From IMG/VR virus record IMGVR_UViG_3300028577_000006: 64,000 nucleotides of DNA, one strand, 5' to 3'. Below, in pieces: positions 12,049 through 30,547 of the stretch; positions within the stretch are counted from its first letter, which is position 1, and every line of letters begins with the position of its first letter. This DNA is from a virus. Its lineage: Duplodnaviria; Heunggongvirae; Uroviricota; Caudoviricetes. Below the pieces are notes generated by a model. The model made no database searches. It saw only the letters and a program-made list of their open reading frames with translations, and was not told where the DNA came from. The translations under genes were made by a program, and so were the position numbers.

Positions 12049-13803
12049 TCAACCTCGGATGAAGTCGGCGATGACCGCCGGAGCCGCAGCGTCCATGCCC
12101 ACGACGTCGAGCATGCCCGCGTCGGTCGGATCTGCGATGGTGAACGGCGAGGCTGCCGTGGCCACGACCACGAGCTTCGCCGGGATGTTCGTCTTCTGAC
12201 GATAGCGCTGGAGCGCGATGTGCGGGTGCACCTTGCCCGCGTACGTCTCGTTGTCGGTGTAAACGCAGAACGCTTCGAAGGTCTTGTCGCCTTCCAACGC
12301 GTAAAGCATCGGCTGCGAACAGTCGGTCGAGCCCATCGGCAGAGCGCGCATGATCTGCAACGCCTGTTCGAGCTTCGTGGACTTGGTGATGTTGATGGGA
12401 GTCGTGCCCGCGCCCGCGCCCGCGCCACGGCCGCCGCCGGACGTGAAGCCGATCATGTGCGTGCTCTCTTCCACCCGTGCGGTCACCATGGCCATGACGG
12501 CCACTGCCTCACGGTGGGTGATGCACGAGTTCATGATCGGCGAGTCCATCGAGCCGGAGATGTCCAACGCGAGCAGGTGCGACTTGCCCGTCGACTCCAC
12601 CGACTCGAACGCCGTGTAGAAGACGCTGTCGAGCGCATCGACGATCGGCTTCACCGCCGACCAGGTCAACGTACCCTTCTCGCCATGGCCCTGTGCATAC
12701 GTACGCAGCGCCAGAAGCACTGCGAACGGGTGCAGCCGCGACTTCTTGATCGCGTCGTAGTTGGTGAGCTTGTCGATCACGCGCTTCGACGCATCCGACT
12801 TCGGCGTGAGGAGACCGTTCGCCGTCATGCGGCCGAGGTTGCGCACGAGCGCATGCATCGGCATCGAGTCGAGCAGCGCATCCCAGGTCTCCGGCTTGCC
12901 GAGGAACTGCGACGGCACCATCTCGTGCGTCAGGCGATGCTCACGGATGAGCTTGAGCAGCGTCGTGTAGTCGACGTCCGGCTTCCGGATCGTCTCGAAT
13001 GCGCCGATGAGTCCCGGCATGCCGTCTCGCGACAACGCCGGCTGACGCTCGGTGAGCGAAGCTGCGAAGTCCTTCGCGGACAGCGAGTCCACGCCAGCAG
13101 CATGACGACGGTGCGCACGCGCTGCCTGATCCTTGCGCTGGATGGAGCGCTCGTCGAGTGAGCCTGCCACGACCCAGCGGAAGAGCGCCGACATGACCGT
13201 GTCGTCACTCTTCGGGTGAGCCTGACGCATCACGTCGCGGTGCGACCGTCCGTTGCGCTGCTGGTACTTCACCAGCTGGTATGCGAGCGAACCCGGATCA
13301 CGCGACGTGTACCACGCCGCGACCGCGCGCTTCAGCGCCGAGCCCCAGCCGCGAAGCTGCTCGACCTGGTCGATGAACTCGAACAGGTGCGCGCCGGTGC
13401 GGCAGACACGCGGCAACGCCGCGAGCGCAAGGCGACGCACGACCACATCCCCGTGGGACGCAGCGATTGCCAGCGCGAAGATCGCCGGGCTGTTCTTCGG
13501 CGCTCGGCCGGACTCGCTCACCGCAGCGATCTGCTCGATCGCCGCCGCCGCGTCATCCGCCAGACACTCCGTGAGCGCCTTCGCGTTCTCGCGCACGAGC
13601 TTCTTCTCCGTCGAGTGGTACGTGCCACCCTCGGCGCCGAGCACGAGGAATCGATCCAGCTGCTTCCAGCGATCGACCTCGAACGTGAAGCCGCCAGCGT
13701 TGTTCTTCACCTGGCGCGGATCGGCCTTCGCCATCTGCGTCGCGTTGGCGTTGACGCCGGACTTCTTGCCCGACTTGGTAACGTGCTGTGCGTAGTTGGA
13801 CAT
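12049..13803 (-). CDS. rsr: Ro60-like ribonucleoprotein Rsr (TROVE domain + C-terminal vWA)
   Basis: 584 aa; TROVE-like N-terminal two thirds and C-terminal LALDISGSMDSP MIDAS motif; classic 60-kDa SS-A/Ro architecture. Confidence 0.85.
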   Translation of the reverse strand: MSNYAQHVTKSGKKSGVNANATQMAKADPRQVKNNAGGFTFEVDRWKQLDRFLVLGAEGGTYHSTEKKLVRENAKALTECLADDAAAAIEQIAAVSESGRAPKNSPAIFALAIAASHGDVVVRRLALAALPRVCRTGAHLFEFIDQVEQLRGWGSALKRAVAAWYTSRDPGSLAYQLVKYQQRNGRSHRDVMRQAHPKSDDTVMSALFRWVVAGSLDERSIQRKDQAARAHRRHAAGVDSLSAKDFAASLTERQPALSRDGMPGLIGAFETIRKPDVDYTTLLKLIREHRLTHEMVPSQFLGKPETWDALLDSMPMHALVRNLGRMTANGLLTPKSDASKRVIDKLTNYDAIKKSRLHPFAVLLALRTYAQGHGEKGTLTWSAVKPIVDALDSVFYTAFESVESTGKSHLLALDISGSMDSPIMNSCITHREAVAVMAMVTARVEESTHMIGFTSGGGRGAGAGAGTTPINITKSTKLEQALQIMRALPMGSTDCSQPMLYALEGDKTFEAFCVYTDNETYAGKVHPHIALQRYRQKTNIPAKLVVVATAASPFTIADPTDAGMLDVVGMDAAAPAVIADFIRG

Positions 13804-16995: not shown

Positions 16996-17002
16996 AAAGG
17001 AA

Positions 17003-18225: not shown

Positions 18226-18230
18226 ATGAG

Positions 18231-18759: not shown

Positions 18760-18760
18760 G

Positions 18761-18985: not shown

Positions 18986-19000
18986 GCTGCTCTCCGTAGT

Positions 19001-19516
19001 TCACGCCGCCGCCGCAAGATACGGACGCCACGTCTCGGGCACCGTGTTCAGGTCGAACTTCTTGCTGACGATCGGAAGCCAGTCGGGCTTCCTCGGAACA
19101 CGGAGAAGCGTCATGCCAGCTTCGGCCGGCGTGCGGTTCGCCTTCTTCGCGTTGCACACGTAGCAGGCCATCACGATGTTCTCCCACTCGGTCTTGCCAC
19201 CACGCGAACGCGGAAGCACGTGGTCGTAGTTCAGGCCGCGCGGCTCGAACGAGACGCGACAGTACTGGCACGTGTGACCGTCACGCAGCAGGACGTTCTG
19301 CCGCGAGAACTTGATCGAGACCTTGCGGACCCGACCCTTGCGCAGCTTCCGGATCACCGACGGCATCTGCATGATGACGCTCGGCGAGCGAAGCACTTCC
19401 GCAAGCTCCTCGACGACCTCGGCCTTGCTGTCGTAGAGCATGCACACGGCACGCTCCCAGCTGATGATCCGCTCCGGTCTGTAGAACATGTCCAGCACCA
19501 GTACTCTGTTTTCCAT
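19001..19516 (-). CDS. HNH endonuclease (McrA-like)
   Basis: CQYC ... NYDHVLPRSRGG ... WENIVMACYVCNAKK. Confidence 0.75.
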   Translation of the reverse strand: MENRVLVLDMFYRPERIISWERAVCMLYDSKAEVVEELAEVLRSPSVIMQMPSVIRKLRKGRVRKVSIKFSRQNVLLRDGHTCQYCRVSFEPRGLNYDHVLPRSRGGKTEWENIVMACYVCNAKKANRTPAEAGMTLLRVPRKPDWLPIVSKKFDLNTVPETWRPYLAAAA

Positions 19517-19533
19517 TGGACCCTGGCCTGTCT

Positions 19534-19616
19534 TGCGCGCAGCAGGAGTCGAACCTGCAAGTGCCGAAGCACGGCGGTGTTTGAAGCCGCTACGTTAGCC
19601 GTTCCGTCATGCGCGC
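19534..19616 (-). tRNA. tRNA-Leu (anticodon CAA), class II
   Basis: acceptor GCGCGCA/TGCGCGC, anticodon loop TTCAAAC, extra arm GTGC-TTCG-GCAC, T GCAGG-TTCGACT-CCTGC. Confidence 0.8.
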
Positions 19617-19699
19617 ATGTTGGTGTTTCGGTTCGAAGAGTATGTCGTAAGCGTCTGGGATGCAAGCCTTTCTGACCTCGTGCTAGCATCACGAGCATC

Positions 19700-20662: not shown

Positions 20663-21189
20663 GCTTGGCTTCGCAGCGCGGCGTTCATCTGCGCGTGAGC
20701 AGCCGTACACTCGGCGCACCGACAGCCGCACGTGTACTTCGAATGCGTACCACACTTGGCTCGTCGATCGGGACTCGCTGCCCAGGCCTTTTTTGCTGAC
20801 GATGCTCCAGCGCACCGTTTTCCGCAGAACGCATCGGCAGTGGCGCCTCGCTTCTTGGCGGCAGCGCGTGCAGCGCGCCGTTCGCGCAGGAACACCACAC
20901 CACACTCTGCGCACGTAGTGGCGCAATACTTGTCCTCTTCCGGAAGACGTTTGTGATCTGCTGTGTGCTGAGCGGTAGACTTTATTTCCAGGTTGTCCGG
21001 CCTGTTATCACCTTTGTTCTCGTTTTGATGGTGCACTTCCTCGTCGCGGCGCAGCGCTCGGCCTAAGTGCGCTTCCATGACGAGACGATGTACGTACAGG
21101 GTGGCGCGCGATCCGTCCGACCTTTTCACCGAAAAGTATCGGTAACCGTTTGGCATGGTGTACGGTCCGTAACGCTTTTCTTCCGTCAT
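20644..21189 (-). CDS. HNH homing endonuclease
   Basis: YVHRLVMEAHLG ... EVHHQNENKGDNRPDNLE HNH_3 motif; annotated ORF start (21252) would overlap tRNA-Leu, so internal ATG 21189 used. Confidence 0.7.
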   Translation of the reverse strand: MTEEKRYGPYTMPNGYRYFSVKRSDGSRATLYVHRLVMEAHLGRALRRDEEVHHQNENKGDNRPDNLEIKSTAQHTADHKRLPEEDKYCATTCAECGVVFLRERRAARAAAKKRGATADAFCGKRCAGASSAKKAWAASPDRRAKCGTHSKYTCGCRCAECTAAHAQMNAALRSQAQRVAR

Positions 21190-21224
21190 TTTGCGCGTAT
21201 ACCATGTCACCACGTTTCTGTAAA

Positions 21225-21308
21225 CTGGGATCGACAGGAGTTGCACCTGCACGGGCTTTCGCCCACACGGCCCTCAACCGTGCGTGTCTGCTAGTTCCAC
21301 CACGATCC
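21225..21308 (-). tRNA. tRNA-Leu (anticodon GAG), class II; T-loop TGCAACT
   Basis: D region GTGGTGGAACTAGCAGACACG resembles bacterial tRNA-Leu; anticodon stem CACGG/CCGTG loop TTGAGGG; G at position 55. Confidence 0.65.
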
Positions 21309-21314
21309 CGCGAA

Positions 21315-21398
21315 CTGCCGAGAGGGGGAATCGAACCCCCACGGGATTTCTCCCACACGATTCTGAATCGTGCGCGTCTACCAGATCCGCCACCTCGG
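21315..21398 (-). tRNA. tRNA-Leu (anticodon CAG), class II
   Basis: acceptor GCCGAGG, anticodon stem CACGA/TCGTG loop TTCAGAA, T GGGGG-TTCGATT-CCCCC. Confidence 0.8.
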
Positions 21399-21408
21399 CC
21401 AAGGCACC

Positions 21409-21481
21409 ATGCACGACCAGAGGATCGAACTCTGCAAGGGCGGTATGTGACACCGCTGCCGTCTCCAGCTGGCTCGTCGTG
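21409..21481 (-). tRNA. tRNA-Val (anticodon CAC)
   Basis: acceptor GCACGAC/GTCGTGC, anticodon stem GCGGT/ACCGC loop GTCACAT. Confidence 0.75.
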
Positions 21482-21576
21482 CAGACAAAACGATCGTCAG
21501 CGACACGCTGAAGCAAACGAACGGCAGGCTCACAGCGCTCCGGCGTCCTCTCCACTGTCCTCATGCTGACGATCTA

Positions 21577-21648
21577 GTCGGGGTGGGGTGAATCGAACAC
21601 CCGGTTTCCTGTACCCGAAACAGGCGGAATACCACTTTCCTACACCCC
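21577..21648 (-). tRNA. tRNA-Pro (anticodon CGG)
   Basis: acceptor CGGGGTG/CACCCCG, anticodon stem CCTGT/ACAGG loop TTCGGGT. Confidence 0.85.
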
Positions 21649-21715
21649 GAAGAACACTGCGGTTCTGATCTCTCCTGAACGGATGCCTGAGCACGTAGCC
21701 TTCCAGGTCAGAACC

Positions 21716-21787
21716 ATCGCTACGGACGGAGTCGAACCGCCTTCTGCCACCCGTATGAGAGGTGTGCCTGACCGTCAGGTACGTAGC
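21716..21787 (-). tRNA. tRNA-Met or Ile2 (anticodon CAU), elongator type, short D-loop
   Basis: acceptor CGCTACG/CGTAGCG (C1-G72 paired), anticodon loop CTCATAC, T GGCGG-TTCGACT-CCGTC. Confidence 0.55.
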
Positions 21788-21826
21788 GTCATTGCGGCCC
21801 CGAGAGTCGCACTCGGTTGTCCTGGG

Positions 21827-22282
21827 TTATGAGCCCTGGCTGGCATCTCCACCTGCACCGCACAAGCTCTGCTCTTCAGACACGAAGATCGGTCCGTGAT
21901 GGCCTAGCCTCGCGCCACACGACCTTGAACACGCCACTGTCATCGTCTTGTTTCTACCGGCCCTAAGACGCAGTACGTACTCCTTTATTTCGAAGGGCTT
22001 CTTGCACCAGGCACAAAACCTGGTCACGGAAGGCTGTTCCTGGTGATGGCGCGAATGCTCGCCACGCATGACGACTTCCAGATTGCTTTCGTCGTTGTTC
22101 GTCTTGTCGTGATCAGCGTGGTGCACCACTTCACCCGGAAGCAGGAGCCGGCCAAGGCAGTTCTCGGCGATGACGCGGTGCAGCGGGTACAACCCCTTCG
22201 CGTTGCGTTTTGGATGCGGCGGATCGGTCCGCGCATACTTGTACCCGCCACCCTTGCACGTCGATGTGATCTCGAAGAGCAT
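21827..22282 (-). CDS. HNH endonuclease
   Basis: HHADHDKTNNDESNLEVVMRGEHSRHH HNH motif; C-terminal Cys pairs; embedded in tRNA array. Confidence 0.7.
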   Translation of the reverse strand: MLFEITSTCKGGGYKYARTDPPHPKRNAKGLYPLHRVIAENCLGRLLLPGEVVHHADHDKTNNDESNLEVVMRGEHSRHHQEQPSVTRFCAWCKKPFEIKEYVLRLRAGRNKTMTVACSRSCGARLGHHGPIFVSEEQSLCGAGGDASQGS

Positions 22283-22292
22283 TTTGCCACCA

Positions 22293-22364
22293 CGCTCTCG
22301 GAAGGAATCGAACCTTCGTTCCTGGCTTCGGAAACCAGTGCCCTATCCGCTGGACGACGAGAGC
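22293..22364 (-). tRNA. tRNA-Arg (anticodon CCG)
   Basis: acceptor GCTCTCG/CGAGAGC, anticodon stem CTGGT/GCCAG loop TTCCGAA. Confidence 0.85.
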
Positions 22365-22371
22365 AAGACAG

Positions 22372-22443
22372 CGTCCTCACAAGGATTCGAACCTTGAATG
22401 CAGCGTCCGTAGCGCTGAGTGATATCCGTTTCACCATGAGGAC
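22372..22443 (-). tRNA. tRNA-Arg (anticodon ACG)
   Basis: acceptor GTCCTCA/TGAGGAC, anticodon stem CAGCG/CGCTG loop CTACGGA. Confidence 0.85.
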
Positions 22444-22452
22444 AAAGGCACA

Positions 22453-22526
22453 CGCTCCGGGCGGGACTCGAACCCGCGACCAGCCGCTTAGAAGGCGGCT
22501 GCTCTGATCCACTGAGCTACCGGAAC
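22453..22526 (-). tRNA. tRNA-Arg (anticodon UCU)
   Basis: D GCTC-AGTGGATCA-GAGC, anticodon stem GCCGC/GCGGC loop CTTCTAA. Confidence 0.85.
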
Positions 22527-22653
22527 AAGGTTTCTAGCAAGGTTCGTAAGATGGCATGATGACGGCTGCTCTGCCACCTGAGCTACATCCGCACGGGCGG
22601 AAGGTTGGACTCGAACCAACGACATGCTGTTTGGGTAACCATCTGACTTCGGC
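22527..22653 (-). pseudogene. degenerate tRNA-like pair: 58-nt acceptor+T-arm element (22596..22653) and tRNA 5'-half-like segment (22527..22595)
   Basis: 22596..22653 has T-arm GTTGG-TTCGAGT-CCAAC and acceptor-like ends but no D/anticodon arms; 22527..22595 begins GCGGATGTAGCTCAGGTGGCAGAGC (canonical acceptor-5' + D-arm) then loses tRNA structure. Confidence 0.35.
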
Positions 22654-22659
22654 TAGAAG

Positions 22660-22728
22660 AGGGGCGACACAGAGTTGCACTGTGCTTCATCGGGTTGCAG
22701 CCGATGTCCTTCGCTGGAAGCTCGCCCC
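22660..22728 (-). tRNA. tRNA-Cys (anticodon GCA); T-loop TGCAACT
   Basis: acceptor GGGGCGA/TCGCCCC, anticodon stem ATCGG/CCGAT loop CTGCAAC. Confidence 0.7.
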
Positions 22729-22866
22729 AAGTTCTCTGGCAAGGGTCGTCGTTGGATATTACGGCGTTCTACTCTTGAACTACGCCCTCCATAGAAAGGG
22801 AAGGCGGCTGGAGTCGCACCAGCGTTACCGGCTCCATATGCGGTAACCAACAACATCGGCCAGAGA
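22729..22866 (-). other. structured 138-nt spacer with T-arm-like hairpin (GCTGG-TGCGACT-CCAGC) and 7-bp hairpin GTTACCG/CGGTAAC; no tRNA fold found
   Basis: hairpins seen in sequence; acceptor pairing absent. Confidence 0.3.
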
Positions 22867-22937
22867 AGCGATCGGCGAGAATCGAACTCGCGTCTCCTGG
22901 GTGGAAGCCAGGGGCCAAGCCACTTGACCACAATCGC
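22867..22937 (-). tRNA. tRNA-Gly (anticodon UCC)
   Basis: anticodon stem CCTGG/CCAGG loop CTTCCAC, T GCGAG-TTCGATT-CTCGC. Confidence 0.8.
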
Positions 22938-22948
22938 ATTGGAACCAG

Positions 22949-23022
22949 AGCCGACGATAGGACTTGCACCTACACCCTCCTCCTTACCAAGGAGGCGCAC
23001 CAGCTACTTGTGCTACGTCGGC
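22949..23022 (-). tRNA. tRNA-Thr (anticodon GGU); T-loop TGCAAGT
   Basis: acceptor GCCGACG/CGTCGGC, anticodon stem CCTCC/GGAGG loop TTGGTAA. Confidence 0.75.
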
Positions 23023-23027
23023 GAAAG

Positions 23028-23098
23028 AGCCGGCCACCAGAATCGAACTGGCCTCTAACGGCGTACAAAGCCGCTGCATCCCTTGATGCTAAACCGGC
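23028..23098 (-). tRNA. tRNA-Thr (anticodon UGU)
   Basis: anticodon loop TTTGTAC, T GCCAG-TTCGATT-CTGGT. Confidence 0.75.
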
Positions 23099-23102
23099 AC
23101 CA

Positions 23103-23173
23103 AGCCACCAGCGGGAGTCGAACCCGCACCTTCGGTTTACGAAACCGGTGCTCTGCCTCTGAGCTATGGTGGC
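23103..23173 (-). tRNA. tRNA-Thr (anticodon CGU)
   Basis: acceptor GCCACCA/TGGTGGC, D GCTC-AGAGGCA-GAGC, anticodon loop TTCGTAA. Confidence 0.75.
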
Positions 23174-23177
23174 GACA

Positions 23178-23248
23178 TGGACCTCCCGGGAATCGAACCC
23201 GGATCAGCAGCTTGCAAAGCTACTAGTCTCCCATTGACGTAGAGGCCC
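23178..23248 (-). tRNA. tRNA-Ala (anticodon UGC)
   Basis: G3:U70 pair, anticodon stem GTAGC/GCTGC loop TTTGCAA. Confidence 0.8.
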
Positions 23249-23253
23249 ATCAA

Positions 23254-23324
23254 AGCGGCTCGGGGGAATCGAACCCCAGTGGTCAGTGTGGCACACTGAC
23301 TGCGGACCACCCGCTACGAGCCGC
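23254..23324 (-). tRNA. tRNA-Gly (anticodon GCC)
   Basis: acceptor GCGGCTC/GAGCCGC, anticodon stem TCAGT/ACTGA loop GTGCCAC. Confidence 0.75.
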
Positions 23325-23475
23325 AAACAAAACTTGGGTGGATAGACCGGATTTTCACCGGCGCGCGCCGAGCTTACTGACTCGCCGCTCTGAACTGGGT
23401 CTCGTTTCCGGGCCGTTCCTCTCCCGTACTCCTCGTCCCAGCCGGATGCTGAACATCGCCTGAGCTACTATCCAC
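23325..23475 (-). ncRNA. ~151-nt tRNA-like structured RNA (8-bp acceptor-like stem GTGGATAG/CTATCCAC, D-arm-like TAGCTCAGG, T-arm-like CCGG-TGAAAAT-CCGG)
   Basis: occupies the slot between tRNA-Gly and tRNA-Ala; internal hairpins GGATG-TTCAG-CATCC etc.; no canonical anticodon arm. Confidence 0.35.
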
Positions 23476-23548
<73 letters not shown>

Positions 23549-23585
23549 GTTGCACTTCTGTCCGACACTCGCTACGCTCGCCGGC

Positions 23586-23987
23586 ATGGAACTTCCCGAC
23601 AAGATGCAGAAGGAACTCGCTGACGGCCTCCTGATCGCGTATCGCGTGAAGGAAAGCAAGCTCGACTACTCGCTGATGAACCGGCCCGAGCCGAACCTGA
23701 CCAGTCTCGACGACCACGCTCTGGCCACCGCCATCGTCCTCGCCGGGCGCGAGTTCAAGATCGTGGTCGACGACACCATCATGAAGAGCGAGCGGATCGC
23801 CCGAGACGACGGTCGGACCGTGACGTACAACGAGGCGATCGACATCAACTGGGAAGACCGCATCATCCGATCCACCCGTCGCAAGGACATGACGCTCGAC
23901 GTTCTCGCCGGCATCGTGACCCAGCTGGTGCGCGATGCCGCCGCGCCCACCGGCAGCCCCAGGCCGAGCCCGGGCAAAGCGAACTAG
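23586..23987 (+). CDS. hypothetical protein inside tRNA array
   Basis: ORF 23550..23987; internal ATG 23586; protein-like composition. Confidence 0.45.
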   Translation: MELPDKMQKELADGLLIAYRVKESKLDYSLMNRPEPNLTSLDDHALATAIVLAGREFKIVVDDTIMKSERIARDDGRTVTYNEAIDINWEDRIIRSTRRKDMTLDVLAGIVTQLVRDAAAPTGSPRPSPGKAN

Positions 23988-23988
23988 A

Positions 23989-24059
23989 TCGTCGAGCGGA
24001 GAATCGAACTCCGGTACGTCACGAGTCGGGTGACTGCCTTACCACTGGGCTACTCGACG
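23989..24059 (-). tRNA. tRNA-Val (anticodon GAC), C33 in anticodon loop
   Basis: acceptor CGTCGAG/CTCGACG, anticodon stem GTCAC/GTGAC loop CCGACTC. Confidence 0.6.
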
Positions 24060-24122
24060 TTGGTTCCGCTGGTTGAATGGCCATCCCGCGTCGGCCCATG
24101 GAACCAACGCGCGCGCAGCGGA

Positions 24123-24195
24123 TGGGCACGGTGAGACTCGAACTCACAGTCGCTCCCGTATCAGGGGAGTGCACTAACCATTGTGCTACGTGCCC
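24123..24195 (-). tRNA. tRNA-Ile (anticodon GAU)
   Basis: acceptor GGGCACG/CGTGCCC, anticodon stem CTCCC/GGGAG loop CTGATAC. Confidence 0.85.
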
Positions 24196-24198
24196 GAA

Positions 24199-24274
24199 GC
24201 GTCCTTGGCAAGAGTCGAACTTGCGACCGACCACTTAGGAAGTGGTTGCTCTGTCCAGCTGAGCTACAAGGACG
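24199..24274 (-). tRNA. tRNA-Arg (anticodon CCU)
   Basis: acceptor CGTCCTT/AAGGACG, anticodon stem ACCAC/GTGGT loop TTCCTAA. Confidence 0.8.
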
Positions 24275-24277
24275 TAG

Positions 24278-24350
24278 GGCGAGTGACGGGAATCGAACCC
24301 GCTAATAGTAGGACCACAACCTACCGCCTATCCATTTGGCTTCACCCGCC
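24278..24350 (-). tRNA. tRNA-His (anticodon GUG) with encoded G-1
   Basis: extra 5' G pairing with discriminator C73 (bacterial His identity), anticodon stem GTAGG/CCTAC loop TTGTGGT. Confidence 0.85.
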
Positions 24351-24367
24351 ATAAAAACCAAGACACT

Positions 24368-24440
24368 TGGAGCTAGCCGGAATCGAACCGGCGGCCTTCT
24401 GGCTGCGAGTCAGACGCTCTCCCAACTGAGCTATAGCCCC
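24368..24440 (-). tRNA. tRNA-Ala (anticodon CGC)
   Basis: G3:U70, D GCTC-AGTTGGGA-GAGC, anticodon loop CTCGCAG. Confidence 0.75.
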
Positions 24441-24447
24441 AGACACA

Positions 24448-24519
24448 TCGGGGTGACAGGACTCGAACCTGCGTTGACGTGCACCCAAAGCACGTGCCCG
24501 ACCACTGGGCGACACCCCG
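24448..24519 (-). tRNA. tRNA-Pro (anticodon UGG)
   Basis: acceptor CGGGGTG/CACCCCG, anticodon stem CGTGC/GCACG loop TTTGGGT. Confidence 0.85.
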
Positions 24520-24611
24520 TTACAAGTAGGCAAGGGTTGAAGGTCGGAAATGGGCCTTTCGGCCCAGTCTTTGGTATTGGTAAAGAGATAACCAACCTTC
24601 TTCGGCCTACA

Positions 24612-24685
24612 CGCCTCTGGCGGGAGTTGAACCCGCCTCGACCCTGCTTGACAAGCAGGCGTCCACGCCGGTGGACTTCAGAGGC
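24612..24685 (-). tRNA. tRNA-Asp (anticodon GUC); T-loop TTCAACT
   Basis: acceptor GCCTCTG/CAGAGGC, D GTCC/GGAC, anticodon stem CCTGC/GCAGG loop TTGTCAA. Confidence 0.8.
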
Positions 24686-24890
24686 AAAGACACATGCCCT
24701 TCCCTGGTATCGCTCCAGGCCCTTCTCCTTTTCAGAGAGACGCTTCCACTTGGTTAGCTTGAAGGGCGAATCACGGTACCGGTTGCCGACGCACGCGTGC
24801 TTAGTGCGTTTTCCGCGTCAGCCGCAAGCTTGATCACTGCCTGCCGCACCGACGTAGCGCGCCACCAACAACTTGGCCTGGTACCGTGAA

Positions 24891-24961
24891 CAGGTCGTGC
24901 AGGAGTCGAACCTGCTCGACACGAGATTTGGAATCTCGCCGGCTGCCTCAGCCTACGACCT
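24891..24961 (-). tRNA. tRNA-Trp (anticodon CCA), atypical D-arm
   Basis: acceptor AGGTCGT/ACGACCT, anticodon stem CGAGA/TCTCG loop TTCCAAA, T GCAGG-TTCGACT-CCTGC. Confidence 0.65.
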
Positions 24962-24964
24962 ATA

Positions 24965-25052
24965 CTGACCCTGAAGGAATCGAACCTCCGCATGCCTTAT
25001 GAGGGCCTCTCGGTTAACAGCCGAGCGCTCTGGCCAACTGAGCTAAGGGTCA
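24965..25052 (-). tRNA. atypical 88-nt tRNA with anticodon GUU (Asn) and a 19-nt extra arm
   Basis: acceptor TGACCCT/AGGGTCA, canonical D GCTC-AGTTGGCCA-GAGC, anticodon stem CTCGG/CCGAG loop CTGTTAA (U33, A37), then AGGCCCTCATAAGGCATGC inserted before T-arm GGAGG-TTCGATT-CCTTC. Confidence 0.55.
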
Positions 25053-25058
25053 ATACGT

Positions 25059-25110
25059 GGCTGGCGCCAAGATCGGCGCCAGCCTTCTTCTTCGGTTCTT
25101 ATTCAGTTTT
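25059..25110 (+). terminator. intrinsic-terminator-like hairpin (10-bp stem GGCTGGCGCC/GGCGCCAGCC) followed by T-rich tract, + strand orientation
   Basis: perfect 10-bp GC stem, 6-nt loop, then TTCTTCTTCGGTTCTTATTCAGTTTTC. Confidence 0.45.
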
Positions 25111-25137
25111 CAAGGCTGCACTAAGCAGCACGAACCA

Positions 25138-25208
25138 TTCCGGGGCGAGGAATCGAACCTCGATTAGCAGAGCCAGAACCTGCCGTCCTGCCATTAGACG
25201 AACCCGGA
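25138..25208 (-). tRNA. tRNA-Gln (anticodon CUG)
   Basis: U1:A72, D-arm TCGTCTAATGGCAGGAC identical to tRNA-Gln(UUG) at 11241, anticodon loop TTCTGGC, T CGAGG-TTCGATT-CCTCG. Confidence 0.75.
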
Positions 25209-25279
25209 TGGGTTGTGGGGGAATCGAACCCCCGTCGGCCGGGTAAGAACCGGCTGCTCGACCACTGAGCTAACAACCC
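25209..25279 (-). tRNA. tRNA-Lys (anticodon CUU)
   Basis: acceptor GGGTTGT/ACAACCC, D GCTC-AGTGGTC-GAGC, anticodon stem GCCGG/CCGGC loop TTCTTAC. Confidence 0.85.
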
Positions 25280-25302
25280 GCTTCACATCAACACGCTGCC
25301 AC

Positions 25303-25375
25303 TGGGAGCGACGGGACTTGAACCCGCATCGTGCGGATTAAAAGTCCGCTGTTCTGACCGTTGAACTACGCTCCC
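25303..25375 (-). tRNA. tRNA-Lys (anticodon UUU); T-loop TTCAAGT
   Basis: acceptor GGGAGCG/CGCTCCC, D GTTC-AACGGTCA-GAAC, anticodon stem GCGGA/TCCGC loop CTTTTAA. Confidence 0.85.
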
Positions 25376-25379
25376 GCTT

Positions 25380-25580
25380 CTACGCGGCAGCGCGTTTCTC
25401 CTCTCGCCCTTCGACGCCAAGGACCGTGCGACGGTCCACCGAGGACATGCCCGACCAGAGCGCGTCGAGTTCGTCCTGAAGCCGATCGGCTTCACTTTCC
25501 GCGCCCACATGCGTACGCGCGAGCTTCAGCTTCTCGCGGGTCCGTCGGTAACGCTCGATGATGTGGAAGCTCATGACCAT
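25380..25580 (-). CDS. small hypothetical protein (66 aa) between tRNA-Lys and tRNA-Tyr
   Basis: ORF fits exactly between two tRNAs; charged helical composition. Confidence 0.4.
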   Translation of the reverse strand: MVMSFHIIERYRRTREKLKLARTHVGAESEADRLQDELDALWSGMSSVDRRTVLGVEGREEKRAAA

Positions 25581-25591
25581 GTTCTCTCTGA

Positions 25592-25673
25592 TGCCGGCTA
25601 CTGGAATCGAACCAATGCACCCCGAAGGGAAGCGCGGTTACAGCGCGCAGAACGTCCATCGTTCACAACCGGC
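25592..25673 (-). tRNA. tRNA-Tyr (anticodon GUA), class II (bacterial type)
   Basis: D GAAC-GATGGAC-GTTC, anticodon stem GCGCG/CGCGC loop CTGTAAC, long extra arm TTCCC-TTCG-GGGTG. Confidence 0.85.
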
Positions 25674-25675
25674 AG

Positions 25676-25709
25676 AAACGAAAAAGGGCACTCGGTTTCC
25701 CGGGTGCCC
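25676..25709 (-). terminator. rho-independent terminator (GGGCAC-N12-GTGCCC then UUUUUCGUUUCU) immediately 5' of tRNA-Tyr
   Basis: 6-bp GC stem followed by U-tract on the - strand. Confidence 0.55.
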
Positions 25710-26085
25710 TCGTGGTTGCTGGACCTTTGTCCGTGCGTCCTACGAGGGCTTCCTGGGCTTCTCCTGATTCTGATGCGCGTAGAAGCCCGACCACGCGCAC
25801 ACGACTCCGCGATCGCTACCGAGTCGCGGCAGCGTCGTGGAAATCATGGTAGCGAAGGTCGTTGTCACGGAGGGTGGTTTCTCGTTCGGTGGAGCGTCGG
25901 CCCCGGTCTCATGTGTCTGACACATCGAAGGATGGCGGGTCAAGAAGAAAAAGCAGAGCAGGAAAAAATCGTGCGGAGACCTGCCTACATCGAAACCGAG
26001 GCCCGACGTGGTGAACGCCGGGCCTCGTGGGAACGCGGCGAACCTCGCCGCTGGAGATGATCATGCGCCGAAAACGACCGGCGCG

Positions 26086-26556
26086 CTACCGGCGCAGGTG
26101 ATTGCGGGACCACCACCGTTCTGACGGGAACTGCTCCTCGCAGATCTTCCACTGCTCCACGGCGTCGGTAATCCAGGCCTTCTTCTGCACGTCGTACAGA
26201 AAAAGTGGCTTCCGATTTCCGCGTGTGCACTTCGCCGCGAAGAGCACGTCCCGCCCTCGGCCGGCGTCTTCCGTGTCGAAGATGACGACGAGCTGATCGA
26301 CAGACTTCACGAAGGCGCGCGTCGGTTCACGACCTTCTTCCATCCACGTGTGCGCCTCTTCCCAAGGCGCGCGGAGAATCTCCGGCGGAGATTTGCAGAA
26401 GCGGCGCGCAGCATGCTCAACCAAGCGACCCGTCCCCCGCTGTCCGCGACTCACGATCGTGAGTGCCTCTCCGTGACGCTCTACCAGCCGCTGCACGCAG
26501 CGATCGAGCAGCGGCGCATCGTCGAACAGGCGCGATCCGATGACTCCGACGCGCAT
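26086..26556 (-). CDS. SLOG/DUF2493-like Rossmann-fold protein (YspA-related, tentative)
   Basis: MRVGVIGSRLF ... LTIVSRGQRGTG pattern. Confidence 0.45.
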   Translation of the reverse strand: MRVGVIGSRLFDDAPLLDRCVQRLVERHGEALTIVSRGQRGTGRLVEHAARRFCKSPPEILRAPWEEAHTWMEEGREPTRAFVKSVDQLVVIFDTEDAGRGRDVLFAAKCTRGNRKPLFLYDVQKKAWITDAVEQWKICEEQFPSERWWSRNHLRR

Positions 26557-26583
26557 CAGCCCCGACTTGCCGCGATCGGCTCG

Positions 26584-26808
26584 CTACACCTGACCACGGA
26601 ACACCACGCTGTACTTGGGCACGATGCGCTCGTCACCGATCTCCGCCGCGCTCGCGTGAGGCAGCCGAGTCGCCTCCAGAAACCGCACGCGGTAGTACTT
26701 GTTCGTCTCCCCAGTCACCTCGACTGAAACCGAACTTCGCCCCGACCATCCATCGAGACACATGCGAGCCGCCTTCGGCTCCATCTGCTTCACTTCCGAC
26801 TTCTTCAC
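26584..26808 (-). CDS. hypothetical protein
   Basis: ORF upstream of S24 peptidase. Confidence 0.4.
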   Translation of the reverse strand: MKKSEVKQMEPKAARMCLDGWSGRSSVSVEVTGETNKYYRVRFLEATRLPHASAAEIGDERIVPKYSVVFRGQV

Positions 26809-27135
26809 CTACGCCTCCACCTTCACCAAGCGTCCGTAGACCTGGGACCGATTCACCCAGCCGTTGAGCCTGCCATGATTGTTTCCAATCAGGAAGCCTC
26901 GGTTGAGGTCCACGGACTTCACGAGGTGGAGATAGTAGGACGAGCGGACGAAACAGAGAACGACGTCGTCGACCTCTGGATCGGCCACGAGAGGTTCGAC
27001 CGTACACAGCTGCCCAGACTTGATCCGGGGCGTCATCGAGTTGCCTCTGGGCCGGAACGAAACCGTCTCGCCGGCCACGAGCTTCTCGGCGTACGGCTTG
27101 GCCCAGCCATCCCTCACGCTCAGCCCTTCACGCAC
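26809..27135 (-). CDS. S24-family (LexA/UmuD-like) peptidase domain protein
   Basis: GNSMTPRIKSGQL matches the GDSMxP serine-nucleophile motif of S24 peptidases; no HTH domain. Confidence 0.6.
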   Translation of the reverse strand: MREGLSVRDGWAKPYAEKLVAGETVSFRPRGNSMTPRIKSGQLCTVEPLVADPEVDDVVLCFVRSSYYLHLVKSVDLNRGFLIGNNHGRLNGWVNRSQVYGRLVKVEA

Positions 27136-28283
27136 ATGATCTGCTTGAGCTTCTCGTGGATCGTCACGAGGTCAGCCTGGTTGGCCATGACCTGGTCGAT
27201 GTCCTTGTACGACATGGGGATCTCGTCGAGCACGCTGCTGTCCTTGCGGCACTCGACGCCCGCTGTCGCTGACGCAAGATCGTCGAGCGTGAACGTTCGC
27301 TTCGCTTCGCCGCGCGACATGCGGCGGCCGGCGCCGTGTGATGCCGAATGGAACGACTCCGGGTTGCCGAGGCCCTTCACGATGTACGAGCACGTTCCCA
27401 TCGAGCCCGGGATGATGCCCCACTCGCCTGCGCGCGCCGAGATCGCGCCCTTGCGTGTGACGATAACGTCCTCGCCGAAGTGGCACTCGTGGCTGACGTA
27501 GTTGTGGTGACAGGAGATCGGCTCGAAGAATGCCACTCCGGGTACCATCGAACGCAAAACATCCTGGTAGATGACAAGCATCACCTGACGATTCTCCTTC
27601 GCGTATCGCTGCGCCCATTCCAAATCGTGAACGTAGGCCGCCATCTCTGGCGTCTTCGAAAGAAACACGGCGAGATCACGGTCCGGAAGAAGGGCGTTGT
27701 GTGCGAGCTTCTTCGCTCGCTTGATGTGGATCTCGGCCAGGCACTTTCCGATGTTGCGTGAGCCCGAATGCAGCATCATCCACACGTGATCGTGTGAATC
27801 CAGGCACAGCTCGATGAAGTGGTTCCCGCCGCCGAGCGAGCCCATCTGCTTCATCGCCGTGCCGTACTTGTCCGCCACGCTCTCGTCAAGATCCTTGAAG
27901 CTCGCCCAGAGTGCCGACTTACGCGCGCTCTTGTGCATCGAGTCGTGTCCGTTCGGACCAAGCGGAATCACCTCTTCGATCTTCGACCGAAGATCTTTCA
28001 GCGAATCCGGAAGATGGTGCGACGTCATGTTGGTCTCGACCGCCAGCATGCCGCAGCCGATGTCAACTCCCACGGCAGCGGGCGAGAGCGCGTCCTTCAT
28101 CGCGATCACCGAGCCGACGGTCGCGCCCTTCCCGAGGTGCACGTCTGGCATGACCGCGACGTGCTTGAACGCCCACGGAAGCGCAGCGATGCCCTTCAGC
28201 TGATCGATCGCAGCCGACTCTACCTCGTGTCGGTTCGCCCACATCTTGATGGGAACCACCTTGCCCTGAAGCTCGTCGATCAT
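27120..28283 (-). CDS. rtcB: RNA-splicing ligase RtcB (3'-phosphate/5'-hydroxyl RNA ligase)
   Basis: 387 aa; metal-binding His/Cys-rich motifs (GGNHFIE, HSGSRN, AHNA) typical of RtcB. Confidence 0.9.
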   Translation of the reverse strand: MIDELQGKVVPIKMWANRHEVESAAIDQLKGIAALPWAFKHVAVMPDVHLGKGATVGSVIAMKDALSPAAVGVDIGCGMLAVETNMTSHHLPDSLKDLRSKIEEVIPLGPNGHDSMHKSARKSALWASFKDLDESVADKYGTAMKQMGSLGGGNHFIELCLDSHDHVWMMLHSGSRNIGKCLAEIHIKRAKKLAHNALLPDRDLAVFLSKTPEMAAYVHDLEWAQRYAKENRQVMLVIYQDVLRSMVPGVAFFEPISCHHNYVSHECHFGEDVIVTRKGAISARAGEWGIIPGSMGTCSYIVKGLGNPESFHSASHGAGRRMSRGEAKRTFTLDDLASATAGVECRKDSSVLDEIPMSYKDIDQVMANQADLVTIHEKLKQIMCVKG

Positions 28284-30543: not shown

Positions 30544-30547
30544 GGCT

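What the first reader, a model, noticed from the sequence alone, without database searches (positions are those of the whole stretch)
24965..25052. 88-nt tRNA with anticodon GUU and a 19-nt extra arm
Asn tRNAs are class I with a 4-5-nt variable loop. This one has canonical acceptor, D-arm, a 5-bp anticodon stem and a 7-nt loop (U33, GUU, A37), but a 19-nt insertion (AGGCCCTCATAAGGCATGC) before the T-arm. The insertion can itself form a small hairpin exposing CAU. It could be a tRNA with an insertion or intron-like element, a recoding or suppressor tRNA, or a decoy.
Basis: seen in the sequence. Interest (0 to 1): 0.55.

Follow-up and report, generated by a model that had tools for sequence, protein, structure and literature searches.

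The report
Phage tRNA-Asn with an extra arm
This is a real asparagine tRNA gene in a 37-tRNA array of a phage-like genome that carries an extra hairpin arm, and it belongs to a recurrent type of phage tRNA-Asn that I could not find described in the literature and that also occurs in cultured E. coli phages, where it can be tested.

Summary
On the minus strand, 25052..24965, lies an 88-nt tRNA (Rfam tRNA 61 bits; ARAGORN Asn-GTT). It has the full Asn signature: GUU, A37, G73 and U1-A72. It has a class-I D arm and a 19-nt variable region.

A normal actinophage tRNA-Asn has the same D and anticodon arms. The difference is about 14 nt inserted in the variable loop. The gene is identical in at least three independent assemblies, so it is not an artefact. 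It is the only Asn tRNA in the array.

It is not a one-off. Motif scans found 45 distinct long-arm GUU tRNAs, nearly all in dense tRNA arrays of viral contigs. They make up about 9% of viral tRNA-Asn genes with this motif. In arrays not selected for Asn the share is 17%, against 2.6% for other class-I tRNAs. Their acceptor ends match normal phage tRNA-Asn, not Ser or Tyr. E. coli phage 4MG has one, annotated plainly as tRNA-Asn.

Best reading: a working Asn decoder with a class-II-like arm. The arm may give resistance to host tRNA nucleases; that step is inferred. An intron reading is rejected and recoding is unlikely. I found no paper on this class.

The parts
24965..25052 (-). tRNA-Asn(GUU), 88 nt, no encoded CCA. 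5' end at 25052, discriminator G73 at 24965.
   Evidence: ARAGORN; Rfam RF00005 61.1 bits, full length; sequence.
25016..25018 (-). Anticodon GUU (positions 34-36), within the loop CUGUUAA (25020-25014). Anticodon stem CUCGG (25025-25021) pairs with CCGAG (25013-25009).
   Evidence: Sequence; ARAGORN.
24990..25008 (-). 19-nt variable region AGGCCCUCAUAAGGCAUGC. Hairpin GGCC/GGCA: 3 Watson-Crick pairs plus a G.A, loop CUCAUAA, 3' tail UGC. The net insertion relative to a normal tRNA-Asn is about 14 nt.
   Evidence: CM alignment shows a 16-nt insert; alignment with Gordonia phage Cucurbita tRNA-Asn; fold; sub-family alignment.
24973..24989 (-). T arm GGAGG-UUCGAUU-CCUUC (canonical T loop).
25027..25043 (-). 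Class-I type D arm: 4-bp stem GCUC/GAGC, 9-nt loop AGUUGGCCA with G18 G19. G15 can form the Levitt pair with the last variable nucleotide, C48.
   Evidence: The D stem, D loop (apart from 3 of its 9 positions) and the whole anticodon arm match the normal-size tRNA-Asn of Gordonia phage Cucurbita.
11241..25674 (-). Array of 37 tRNA genes, all on the minus strand. The Asn gene is its only Asn tRNA. It lies 2 nt upstream of tRNA-Trp and 85 nt downstream of tRNA-Gln(CUG).
27120..28283 (-). RtcB RNA ligase gene just upstream of the array. Context only: an RNA-repair module.
   Evidence: phrog_1075, E=6e-139; PF01139 on identical contigs.
12049..13803 (-). Ro60 (TROVE + vWA) gene inside the array. 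Context only.
   Evidence: Pfam PF05731 and PF25045.

Best explanation
It is a working asparagine tRNA of a large phage-like genome. A standard class-I tRNA-Asn body has acquired, or inherited, a short class-II-like variable arm.

Proposed mechanism:
1. It is transcribed with the other 36 tRNAs of the minus-strand array and cut out by host RNase P and 3' processing enzymes.
2. The host enzyme adds CCA, since none is encoded.
3. It is charged through the ordinary Asn identity set: G34-U35-U36 and G73 for AsnRS or non-discriminating AspRS, and U1-A72 for GatCAB.
4. It reads AAC and AAU. The extra hairpin projects from the core between positions 45 and 46-48, as in Leu, Ser and Tyr tRNAs, which ribosomes accommodate.

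Shown here: the gene, its intact Asn signature, its status as sole Asn tRNA of the array, and its membership of a recurrent, structurally maintained, phage- and array-restricted class of long-arm tRNA-Asn.

Inferred: that it is expressed and charged with Asn.

More speculative (about 0.3): the arm is kept because it makes the phage copy structurally unlike host tRNA-Asn. That could block host defence nucleases that cut tRNA-Asn in or beside the anticodon stem and variable region.
For: tRNA quality and Asn identity:
- Full-length Rfam match of 61 bits. GUU, A37, G73 and U1-A72 are present, all stems pair, and a G15-C48 pair is possible.
- The D stem and the whole anticodon arm are identical to those of a normal 76-nt actinophage tRNA-Asn, and the D loop differs at 3 of its 9 positions. 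The main difference is about 14 nt in the variable loop.
- It is the only Asn tRNA among 37. In 15 other arrays of at least 15 tRNAs a long-arm GUU tRNA is likewise the only Asn gene.
- The sequence is identical in three independent assemblies that cover it and in a diverged relative.

Recurrence:
- The motif GGCTGTTAACC-N17-40-GGTTCGATTCC gave 29 viral loci. All were called tRNA-Asn of 82-92 nt.
- In 185,579 species genomes it gave only 19 hits. Ten are long-arm Asn, and seven of those sit in arrays of 12-40 tRNAs on MAG contigs.
- Among the first 120 viral loci with the Asn motif, 11 are long and about 109 normal, roughly 9%.
- In arrays not selected for Asn, 8 of 48 Asn tRNAs are at least 80 nt, against 18 of about 690 other class-I tRNAs (Fisher p=1e-4).

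Structural maintenance of the arm:
- 21 of 45 variable regions fold better than 95% of shuffles, mostly as 3-6 bp stems with GAAA loops.

Identity of the class:
- Long-arm GUU tRNAs have G73 in 98% and U1-A72 in 69%. Normal phage Asn tRNAs have 94% and 72%. Phage Ser has G1-C72 in 92% and A3-U70 in 81%. Phage Tyr has A73 in 100%.

Sub-family:
- Four other lineages have a class-I D arm and the variable arm N-GGCC-loop-GGYY-YRC. The window's is A-GGCC-CUCAUAA-GGCA-UGC. Three of these lineages were found without any constraint on the arm.
- Their other stems covary fully, while the arm stem is conserved in sequence.

Plausibility of an anti-defence role:
- RtcB, RlaP and Ro60 flank or sit in the array.
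- Whole tRNA genes have been swapped between close relatives.
- PARIS AriB cuts tRNA-Asn(GUU) at 40|41, and T5 tRNA-Asn helps escape (PMC12409363).
- Hairpin-tagged variable arms are compatible with translation (PMC7590224).
Against: - There are no expression, processing or charging data for this or any long-arm tRNA-Asn.
- The window's own hairpin is weak (3 Watson-Crick pairs, p=0.18). Its loop is 7 nt, not the usual tetraloop.
- Identity with the relative L051 carries no weight, because the flanking DNA there is also about 99.8% identical.
- The variable loop faces class II synthetases such as AspRS and AsnRS (established structural knowledge), so an arm there might hinder charging.
- G73 plus a long arm are also the main SerRS determinants, and this tRNA happens to have G2-C71, A3-U70 and C11-G24.
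- Long arms also occur in CAU, Ile-UAU and a few other class-I phage tRNAs, so the feature is not exclusive to Asn.
- RtcB shows no association with long-arm Asn loci.
- The host is unknown.
Confidence: 0.6

Rival explanations
1. The insertion is a neutral or mildly harmful accident in a redundant phage tRNA gene. The tRNA either works despite it or is on its way to becoming a pseudogene, and the arm has no function of its own.
For: The window's hairpin is not significantly more stable than shuffles (p=0.18). Its loop is atypical at 7 nt. Phage arrays carry other oddly long class-I tRNAs (Met, Ile, Lys, Cys, Pro, Arg). Array tRNAs duplicate host functions, so constraint may be relaxed. Conservation in L051 is uninformative.
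Against: Everything else in the gene is canonical, and it is the sole Asn tRNA of the array. Long arms are 6-7 times more frequent in Asn than in other class-I isotypes. They are kept as stable hairpins in dozens of unrelated phages. The same GGCC/GGYY arm recurs in lineages whose other stems have fully diverged. Such tRNAs are essentially absent from cellular chromosomes.
Confidence: 0.2
2. The arm changes identity. With G73 and a long variable arm the tRNA is charged by SerRS (or another class-II-tRNA synthetase) and inserts Ser at AAC and AAU, giving deliberate recoding or ambiguous decoding, as proposed for allo-tRNAs and shown for nematode nev-tRNAs.
For: G73 plus a long arm are the main SerRS determinants (PMC7609411, PMC5389517). 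This tRNA also has G2-C71, A3-U70 and C11-G24, as read from the sequence. These are E. coli Ser identity elements by established knowledge. nev-tRNAs show that arm-bearing tRNAs with class-I anticodons can be mischarged (PMC3333845).
Against: The 1:72 pair is U-A, as in Asn, not G-C as in 92% of phage tRNA-Ser. The class as a whole has the acceptor profile of tRNA-Asn, with C2-G71 in 62%. The arm has 3-4 unpaired nucleotides at its 3' base, like Tyr, whereas phage tRNA-Ser has 0-1 and stems of 4-6 bp. Arm orientation is what SerRS reads, by established knowledge. The D arm is class-I type. GUU plus G73 is a strong AsnRS/AspRS identity set. As the only Asn tRNA of the array, a Ser-inserting version would be harmful.
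Confidence: 0.07
3. It is not used for decoding. It acts as a decoy or sponge (for example for a tRNA-Asn- or tRNA-Tyr-directed nuclease), or as a tRNA-like RNA with another role, for example linked to the neighbouring Ro60 and RtcB system.
For: Its arm geometry is Tyr-like, and GUU differs from the Tyr anticodon GUA by one base. Defence nucleases cut the tRNA-Tyr variable loop (PMC13096335). Some long-arm GUU tRNAs sit next to a normal tRNA-Asn (12 of 44 loci). A few have non-Asn ends: U73 in L058 and L165, G1-C72 in L058, L163 and L165. Overexpressed phage tRNA can partly protect host tRNA (PMC13096335).
Against: In this window there is no other Asn tRNA, and the gene keeps every Asn determinant including U1-A72. 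Thirty-two of 44 loci show only the long form.
Confidence: 0.08
4. The 14-19 nt segment is an intervening sequence that is removed after transcription. The neighbouring RtcB ligase reseals the tRNA, giving a normal 74-nt tRNA-Asn.
For: RtcB is the tRNA-splicing ligase of archaea and eukaryotes, and its gene lies about 2 kb upstream. Archaeal tRNA introns can sit in the variable loop, by established knowledge.
Against: ARAGORN's intron search gives no intron model. By inspection no bulge-helix-bulge motif can be drawn around the insert. No splicing endonuclease was found among the neighbouring ORFs. Bacterial tRNA introns are group I, over 200 nt, and lie in the anticodon loop. RtcB is not associated with the other long-arm Asn loci. 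Phage RtcB is generally a repair enzyme. The arms in the class look like stable class-II arms with tetraloops.
Confidence: 0.02

Closest known systems
Bacterial class II tRNAs (Leu, Ser, Tyr, Sec)
   Same: A stem-loop inserted between positions 45 and 46-48. In the long-arm Asn class the arm has 3-4 bp, a tetraloop and a 3-nt 3' tail. That is the geometry of phage and bacterial tRNA-Tyr.
   Different: The anticodon and acceptor identity are those of Asn, a class-I isotype. The window's D arm is class-I type with a 4-bp stem. Its arm loop is 7 nt.
Normal-size phage and bacterial tRNA-Asn (e.g. Gordonia phage Cucurbita gene 28)
   Same: Same D stem and a nearly identical D loop, identical anticodon arm, GUU, G73, U1-A72, and a variable loop that begins AGGC.
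   Different: The normal gene has a 5-nt variable loop. The window gene has 19 nt.
Annotated long tRNA-Asn genes of cultured rV5-like phages (Escherichia phage 4MG KF550303 61200-61285; Cronobacter GAP31; Enterobacter EC152; Klebsiella VIK251)
   Same: GUU anticodon, G73, 86 nt plus CCA, a 4-bp variable arm with a 4-nt 3' tail, located in a tRNA array. In the 3-kb array stretch examined it is the only Asn tRNA found.
   Different: G1-C72, a class-II-like D arm, encoded CCA, and an unrelated arm sequence. The records annotate it simply as tRNA-Asn without comment.
allo-tRNAs and (8/4) tRNAs of bacteria and phages (Mukai et al. 2017, PMC5389517)
   Same: Natural bacterial or phage tRNAs with a long variable arm and non-Ser/Leu/Tyr anticodons, often in polycistronic clusters on mobile DNA.
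   Different: allo-tRNAs have 8/4 or 9/3 acceptor/T-stem configurations, Sec-like D arms and Ser or Ala identity. This tRNA is 7/5 with a class-I D arm and Asn identity.
Nematode nev-tRNAs (PMC3333845)
   Same: Arm-bearing tRNAs that carry anticodons of class-I amino acids.
   Different: nev-tRNAs are tRNA-Leu bodies charged with Leu. Here the body and acceptor end match the anticodon (Asn).
Phage tRNAs that escape defence nucleases (T5 tRNA-Lys/Thr/Asn against PARIS AriB, PMC12409363; T5 tRNA-Tyr against retron-Eco7 and Septu, PMC13096335)
   Same: Phage copies of targeted isoacceptors that differ from the host copy near the cleavage site. tRNA-Asn(GUU) is a documented target, and variable-loop differences are a documented escape route for tRNA-Tyr.
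   Different: The known escapes are base substitutions, not the addition of a whole arm. No nuclease has been tested on a long-arm tRNA-Asn.

Membership tests
tRNA (Rfam RF00005) | Cloverleaf with a 7-bp acceptor stem, D arm with G18 G19, 5-bp anticodon stem, 7-nt loop with U33, and a T arm with a UUCGAUU-type loop | tested here: met
   61.1 bits against a gathering score of 29, model positions 1-71 of 71; ARAGORN call.
Bacterial tRNA-Asn | Anticodon GUU with A37 | tested here: met
   Loop CUGUUAA.
Bacterial tRNA-Asn | Discriminator G73 and U1-A72 first pair | tested here: met
   Sequence. The same profile is seen in normal phage Asn tRNAs.
Bacterial tRNA-Asn | Class-I architecture with a 4-5 nt variable loop | tested here: not met
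   19-nt variable region; 16-nt insert relative to the model; 14 nt relative to the Cucurbita tRNA-Asn.
Bacterial tRNA-Asn | Aminoacylation with Asn (directly or via Asp plus GatCAB) | not testable with these tools
   Needs charging assays.
Class II tRNA (Leu/Ser/Tyr type) | Variable arm of at least 10 nt forming a stem-loop | tested here: inconclusive
   The region is 19 nt, but the hairpin has only 3 Watson-Crick pairs, -3.1 kcal/mol, p=0.18. It is supported indirectly by the sub-family alignment.
Class II tRNA (Leu/Ser/Tyr type) | Anticodon and acceptor identity of Leu, Ser or Tyr, and a class-II D arm | tested here: not met
   GUU, U1-A72 and G73; a 4-bp class-I D stem.
allo-tRNA / (8/4) tRNA | 8/4 or 9/3 acceptor/T-stem configuration | tested here: not met
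   7-bp acceptor and 5-bp T stem. The eighth ARAGORN pair is U(-1).G73.
Intron-containing tRNA | Group I intron, or a bulge-helix-bulge motif with a cognate endonuclease | tested here: not met
   No intron model. No bulge-helix-bulge motif can be drawn, by inspection. No endonuclease was found in neighbouring ORFs.
Phage/array long-arm tRNA-Asn (class delineated here) | GUU anticodon and G73, a 12-25 nt variable region with a short hairpin and a 2-4 nt 3' tail, located in a dense tRNA array of a viral or mobile contig | tested here: met
   The sub-family motif N-GGCC-loop-GGYY-YRC is shared with L058, L163 and L169, and with L165 in the variant form UGCC.
Nuclease-resistant phage tRNA (anti-defence) | Resistance to a host tRNA nuclease that cleaves the host isoacceptor | not testable with these tools
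   Context only: RtcB, Ro60 and RlaP; tRNA cassette swapping; literature (PMC12409363, PMC13096335).

The most novel reading that the evidence does not exclude
Phages maintain a distinct class-II-like lineage, or several convergent lineages, of tRNA-Asn. Its extra arm is an adaptation rather than an accident. Most plausibly it is a steric shield that makes the phage Asn decoder resistant to host defence nucleases that cut tRNA-Asn in the anticodon stem or variable region (PARIS-type Toprim, Septu/PtuAB-type, colicin-E5-type). Alternatively it is a handle that changes which enzymes charge or modify the tRNA. The window's tRNA would be the high-GC representative of this class.
Probability: 0.3. 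Interest if true: 0.75.

Novelty: new variant of a known kind. Interest (0 to 1): 0.6.

Why it matters
Textbook tRNA biology restricts long variable arms in bacteria to Leu, Ser, Tyr and Sec. The arm is a major identity and recognition element.

About one in ten phage tRNA-Asn genes of one common motif carries such an arm, while cellular chromosomes essentially never do. That points to a phage-specific selective pressure on tRNA shape, and tRNAs are now recognised as a main battleground between phages and bacterial immunity.

The same type of gene is present in cultured E. coli phages such as 4MG. Charging, decoding fidelity and nuclease resistance can therefore be tested directly with standard E. 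coli tools.

There is also a practical point for annotation. These genes are currently labelled plain tRNA-Asn, and their unusual length goes unremarked.

Tried and rejected
- Repeat or mobile-element origin of the insert. GGCCCTCATAAGGC has no other copy in the window beyond chance, even with up to 3 mismatches.
- Close relatives among cultured phages. There is no near-identical DNA, and a 966-aa ORF has no tblastn hit in 50,697 phage records. Ro60-based locus retrieval in IMG/VR found nothing.
- Evidence of constraint from the relative L051. The gene is identical, but the flanks are about 99.8% identical too, so there is no statistical power. My first MAFFT-based per-tRNA comparison was misaligned in places and was replaced by BLAST-based counts.
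- Intron. ARAGORN's intron modes changed nothing.
- Origin from a class II tRNA by anticodon mutation (Tyr GUA->GUU or Ser GCU->GUU). Rejected for the window gene because the D and anticodon arms are those of a normal tRNA-Asn. Rejected for the class because the acceptor profile is that of Asn.
- Resemblance of the arm to those of the array's own Ser, Leu and Tyr tRNAs. Only the 3' tail UGC is shared with Tyr.
- Association of long-arm Asn loci with RtcB, Ro60 or RlaP. None was found within the fetched flanks.
- Host assignment. The best RtcB hits are Stenotrophomonas phages at 65% and Ro60 hits reach 41-44% across several phage groups, so it is unresolved. PHROG and Pfam scans of 20 large ORFs gave almost no phage hallmark genes. 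'Phage' therefore rests on the array, the HNH endonucleases, and the phage-like RtcB and Ro60.
- Literature. Six searches and six papers read found no description of long-arm tRNA-Asn.
- A weak STnc40 Rfam hit on the plus strand at 25022-25086 (23 bits against a gathering score of 45) was taken as chance.
Full report
**1. The observation**

The feature lies on the minus strand. ARAGORN finds 37 tRNA genes in the window, all on the minus strand between 11241 and 25674. One is tRNA-Asn(gtt) at 24964-25053. Rfam's tRNA model matches 24965-25052 end to end with 61.1 bits (gathering score 29, E=2e-11).

- a perfect 7-bp acceptor stem
- a 4-bp D stem
- a 5-bp anticodon stem
- U33, GUU and A37
- a 19-nt variable region
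- a canonical T arm

The first pair is U1-A72. The discriminator is G73. No CCA is encoded.

The covariance-model alignment shows a 16-nt insertion in the variable loop. The minimum-free-energy fold of the whole molecule is the cloverleaf plus a GCC/GGC hairpin with the loop CUCAUAA. ARAGORN draws a slightly longer arm: A-U, G.A, G-C, C-G, C-G.

The hairpin is weak taken alone. It has -3.1 kcal/mol, and 18% of shuffles of the 19 nt do as well.

The gene is not an assembly error. The neighbouring RtcB protein is encoded on eight contigs from several samples. Three of the five retrieved stretches cover the tRNA and carry it base for base. No alternative cloverleaf with a standard variable loop exists.

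**2. What kind of tRNA body it is**

BLAST of the 88 nt against 50,697 phage records gives only half-length matches. They stop where the variable region begins.

The best match is the normal 76-nt tRNA-Asn of Gordonia phage Cucurbita. It has the same D stem and an identical anticodon arm, the D loop differs at 3 of its 9 positions, and its variable loop is AGGCU. The window reads AGGC-[CCUCAUAAGGCAUG]-C. So this is a class-I tRNA-Asn body with about 14 extra nucleotides. It is not a Tyr or Ser tRNA with a mutated anticodon.

The insert has no other copy in the window. ARAGORN's intron modes return the same intron-less gene. By inspection there is no bulge-helix-bulge motif, and no splicing endonuclease was found among the neighbouring ORFs.

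**3. It is not a one-off**

I scanned IMG/VR for the Asn anticodon loop and the T loop separated by 17-40 nt (GGCTGTTAACC...GGTTCGATTCC). By my own rough estimate, chance should give less than one hit; the collection scan reports no chance expectation. The scan returned 29 loci. ARAGORN calls every one a tRNA-Asn(gtt) of 82-92 nt inside a tRNA array.

The same scan over one genome from each of 185,579 bacterial and archaeal species gave only 19 hits. Ten are long-arm tRNA-Asn, and seven of those lie in arrays of 12-40 tRNAs on MAG contigs. Ordinary chromosomal tRNA-Asn genes therefore essentially never look like this.

A metagenome scan found a syntenic relative of the window, L051. It is 80-98% identical and carries the identical gene. 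The scan also found two more unrelated examples.

Two frequency estimates agree that the form is common in phages:
- When the gap was allowed to span normal and long variable loops, the first 120 viral loci contained 11 long and about 109 normal genes, roughly 9%.
- An anticodon-free version of the motif retrieved 103 tRNA-bearing loci that were not selected for Asn. In them, 8 of 48 distinct Asn(GUU) tRNAs are at least 80 nt. For all other class-I isotypes the figure is 18 of about 690 (odds ratio 7.5, Fisher p=1e-4).

Long arms are not exclusive to Asn. CAU tRNAs (20 of the first 118 anticodon-free hits) and one Ile-UAU lineage (6 hits) also have them.

**4. Properties of the class**

There are 45 distinct long-arm GUU tRNAs.
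- The variable region is 12-25 nt, most often 16-17.
- It usually forms a 3-6 bp stem capped by a GAAA-type tetraloop.
- It has 1-3 unpaired nucleotides on the 5' side and 3-4 on the 3' side.
- 21 of 45 fold better than 95% of shuffles, where about 2 would be expected by chance.

The 3-nt 3' tail is the geometry of phage tRNA-Tyr. In the same arrays tRNA-Ser has 0-1 unpaired nucleotides there and tRNA-Leu has 2.

The acceptor ends are those of tRNA-Asn:

| tRNA group | Acceptor-end profile |
|---|---|
| Long-arm GUU | G73 98%, U1-A72 69% |
| Normal phage Asn | G73 94%, U1-A72 72% |
| Phage Ser | G1-C72 92%, A3-U70 81% |
| Phage Tyr | A73 100% |

Among 44 non-redundant loci, 12 also hold a normal tRNA-Asn, and in 10 of these it is within 300 nt. 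In 15 arrays of at least 15 tRNAs the long-arm gene is the only Asn tRNA, as in the window.

**5. The window's sub-family**

A scan that fixed only the class-I D arm, the anticodon loop and a long gap placed no constraint on the arm itself. It found three further lineages with closely similar arms. A fourth lineage, L169, came from a scan that did fix the arm motif.

| Source | Variable arm |
|---|---|
| L163, L166 | A-GGCC-GUAA-GGUU-CAC |
| L165 | G-UGCC-UUCG-GGUU-UAC |
| L058, L146, L156, L168 | G-GGCC-UUUAUA-GGUU-UAC |
| L169 | A-GGCC-GAAA-GGUU-CAC |
| window | A-GGCC-CUCAUAA-GGCA-UGC |

On the alignment of these sequences, all seven acceptor pairs, four of five anticodon-stem pairs and three of five T-stem pairs show compensatory changes. 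The arm stem does not covary. It is conserved in sequence, with only a G.U to G-C change.

The other members come from phages with 31-39% G+C, whereas the window has 63%. The window's arm is therefore best seen as a variant of a shared design with a 3-nt larger loop. A fresh random insertion is less likely. The common AGG start could partly reflect conserved positions 44-46.

**6. Cultured examples**

A long-arm Asn sequence from IMG/VR matches annotated tRNA-Asn genes across the arm in several cultured phages: Escherichia phage 4MG, Cronobacter phage GAP31, Enterobacter phage EC152 and Klebsiella phage VIK251.

In 4MG the gene is annotated plainly as tRNA-Asn, 86 nt, inside the tRNA array. 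ARAGORN folds it with a 4-bp arm (UGGA-GCAA-UCCA), a 4-nt tail, G73 and an encoded CCA. The class is thus already in public records without comment, and it sits in an experimentally easy system.

**7. Context in the window**

- RtcB RNA ligase lies at 27120-28283 (phrog_1075, E=6e-139).
- An RlaP nucleotidyltransferase lies at 28561-30657. Both are just upstream of the array.
- A Ro60 (TROVE + vWA) gene lies inside the array.
- Three HNH endonuclease genes are interspersed in the array.

Between the window and L051 the spacers are almost identical, but whole tRNA genes have been replaced by divergent alleles. Examples are His, Arg-CCU, Gly-GCC, Cys, Met, Pro-CGG and two Leu genes. This is the signature of a tRNA region under rapid cassette exchange.

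RtcB is not specifically associated with the other long-arm Asn loci. The host is unresolved. Few phage hallmark genes were recognised. The longest contig carrying the same RtcB is 0.2-1 Mb, so the element is a jumbo-phage-like or otherwise very large mobile genome.

**8. How it most likely works**

Shown: a canonical, intact tRNA-Asn gene with an extra arm. It is the sole Asn gene of its array. It belongs to a recurrent, structurally maintained class restricted to phages and arrays, and that class has Asn-type acceptor ends.

Inferred: it is processed, receives CCA from the host, is charged through GUU, G73 and U1-A72, and reads AAC and AAU. Class-II tRNAs and engineered hairpin-tagged arms function on ribosomes (PMC7590224), so the arm need not prevent decoding.

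More speculative: why the arm is kept. tRNA-Asn(GUU) is cut by the PARIS effector AriB at 40|41, and phage T5's own tRNA-Asn contributes to escape (PMC12409363). [quoted passage not shown] An arm emerging next to the 3' strand of the anticodon stem could plausibly block such enzymes. I give this part about 0.3.

**9. Rivals**

- A functionless accident (0.2). The weak hairpin here fits. The isotype enrichment, the maintained hairpins and the conserved arm motif across diverged lineages argue against it.
- An identity switch to Ser (0.07). G73 plus a long arm, and this tRNA's G2-C71 and A3-U70, suggest it. U1-A72, the class-wide Asn profile, the Tyr-like rather than Ser-like arm base, and the class-I D arm contradict it.
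- A decoy or non-decoding role (0.08). It remains possible, especially for members that sit beside a normal tRNA-Asn. It is unlikely where the gene is the only Asn tRNA.
- Splicing of the insert (0.02). It has no support beyond the presence of RtcB.

**10. Comparison with known systems, and novelty**

The gene works like a tRNA-Asn and meets every tRNA-Asn criterion I could test except the defining class-I variable loop. It resembles class-II tRNAs only in having an arm.

It is not an allo-tRNA, because its stems are 7/5, not 8/4 or 9/3. It is not a nev-tRNA analogue, because its body and anticodon agree.

Six literature searches and six papers found no description of long-arm tRNA-Asn in phages. 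The library lacks many subscription-journal papers, so prior mention elsewhere cannot be ruled out.

I rate it a new variant of a known kind, with interest 0.6. The single gene is modest. The class it reveals would surprise a tRNA specialist and is directly testable in coliphage 4MG.

Noticed in passing
window 11981-12043 (-), immediately downstream of the Ro60 gene at 12049-13803 (-): A 63-nt match to Rfam RF01656 (nematode stem-bulge RNAs, which I recall are Y RNA homologues) scores 37 bits against a gathering score of 38, E=1e-4. Its position next to Ro60 suggests a phage-encoded Y RNA.
   Followed up: partly
window 14607-14691 and 16678-16759 (-): tRNA-Ser(UGA) and tRNA-Ser(GGA) fold with an 8-bp acceptor stem and a 4-bp T stem, and they score better on the tRNA-Sec model than on the tRNA model. 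This is the (8/4) tRNA-Ser form reported from phages and proteobacteria (PMC5389517). It may hint at an alpha-proteobacterial host.
   Followed up: partly
window 20073-27257 compared with L051 (Ga0265334_10003742): Between two close relatives the spacers are nearly identical: 5 differences in 2228 nt in one block. Individual tRNA genes (His, Arg-CCU, Gly-GCC, Cys, Met, Pro-CGG, Leu-CAG, Leu-GAG) differ at 15-31 positions each. Whole tRNA cassettes have been swapped.
   Followed up: partly
window 13946-14599, 19001-19516, 21827-22282 (-): Three HNH endonuclease ORFs are interspersed among the tRNA genes. They are possible drivers of the cassette exchange.
   Followed up: no
window 27120-28283 (-) and 28561-30657 (-): An RtcB ligase gene and an RlaP nucleotidyltransferase gene lie upstream of the array. 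The RlaP ORF also has a LAGLIDADG-like domain at residues 497-561, which could be an intein or a fused homing endonuclease.
   Followed up: no
window 25059-25084 (+): A strong 10-bp GC-rich hairpin is followed by a T-rich tract on the plus strand, making it terminator-like. It abuts the 5' end of the tRNA-Asn gene in the 85-nt spacer after tRNA-Gln. On the tRNA strand it has no U tract.
   Followed up: no
window 11241-25674: ARAGORN finds no tRNA-Phe and no tRNA-Ser(GCU) in the 37-tRNA array. The other 19 amino acids are covered.
   Followed up: no
viral loci L054, L062, L088, L093, L098, L114, L124, L140; also L001 2302-2388 and L022 4355-4441: Long-arm tRNAs with a CAU anticodon are about twice as common as long-arm Asn in the anticodon-free scan (20 against 10 of 118). 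Several begin C1 opposite A72, the mismatch typical of bacterial initiator tRNA.
   Followed up: no
L061, L085, L110, L111, L138, L143; L015 4593-4686: There is a conserved lineage of long tRNA-Ile(UAU), 94 nt in L015/L019, with variable regions mostly of 21-25 nt. A few long-arm Lys, Cys, Pro, Arg and Asp tRNAs also occur in phage arrays.
   Followed up: no
L283 (Escherichia phage 4MG KF550303) 1234-1317: The GenBank record annotates an 84-nt tRNA-Lys next to the long tRNA-Asn. ARAGORN does not call it and instead finds a Ser(UGA) gene just upstream of it, at 1140-1228. The annotation and the predictor disagree.
   Followed up: no
window 45987-47483 (-): A 498-aa ORF has an ice-binding-like domain (PF11999, E=3e-36). 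Its function here is unknown.
   Followed up: no
L164, L161, L162, L167 (giant-virus MAG contigs in IMG/VR): Several motif hits from GVMAG contigs seem, from the raw sequence, to carry extra sequence straight after the anticodon loop. That looks like eukaryote-type tRNA introns rather than variable arms. I did not examine their structure further.
   Followed up: no
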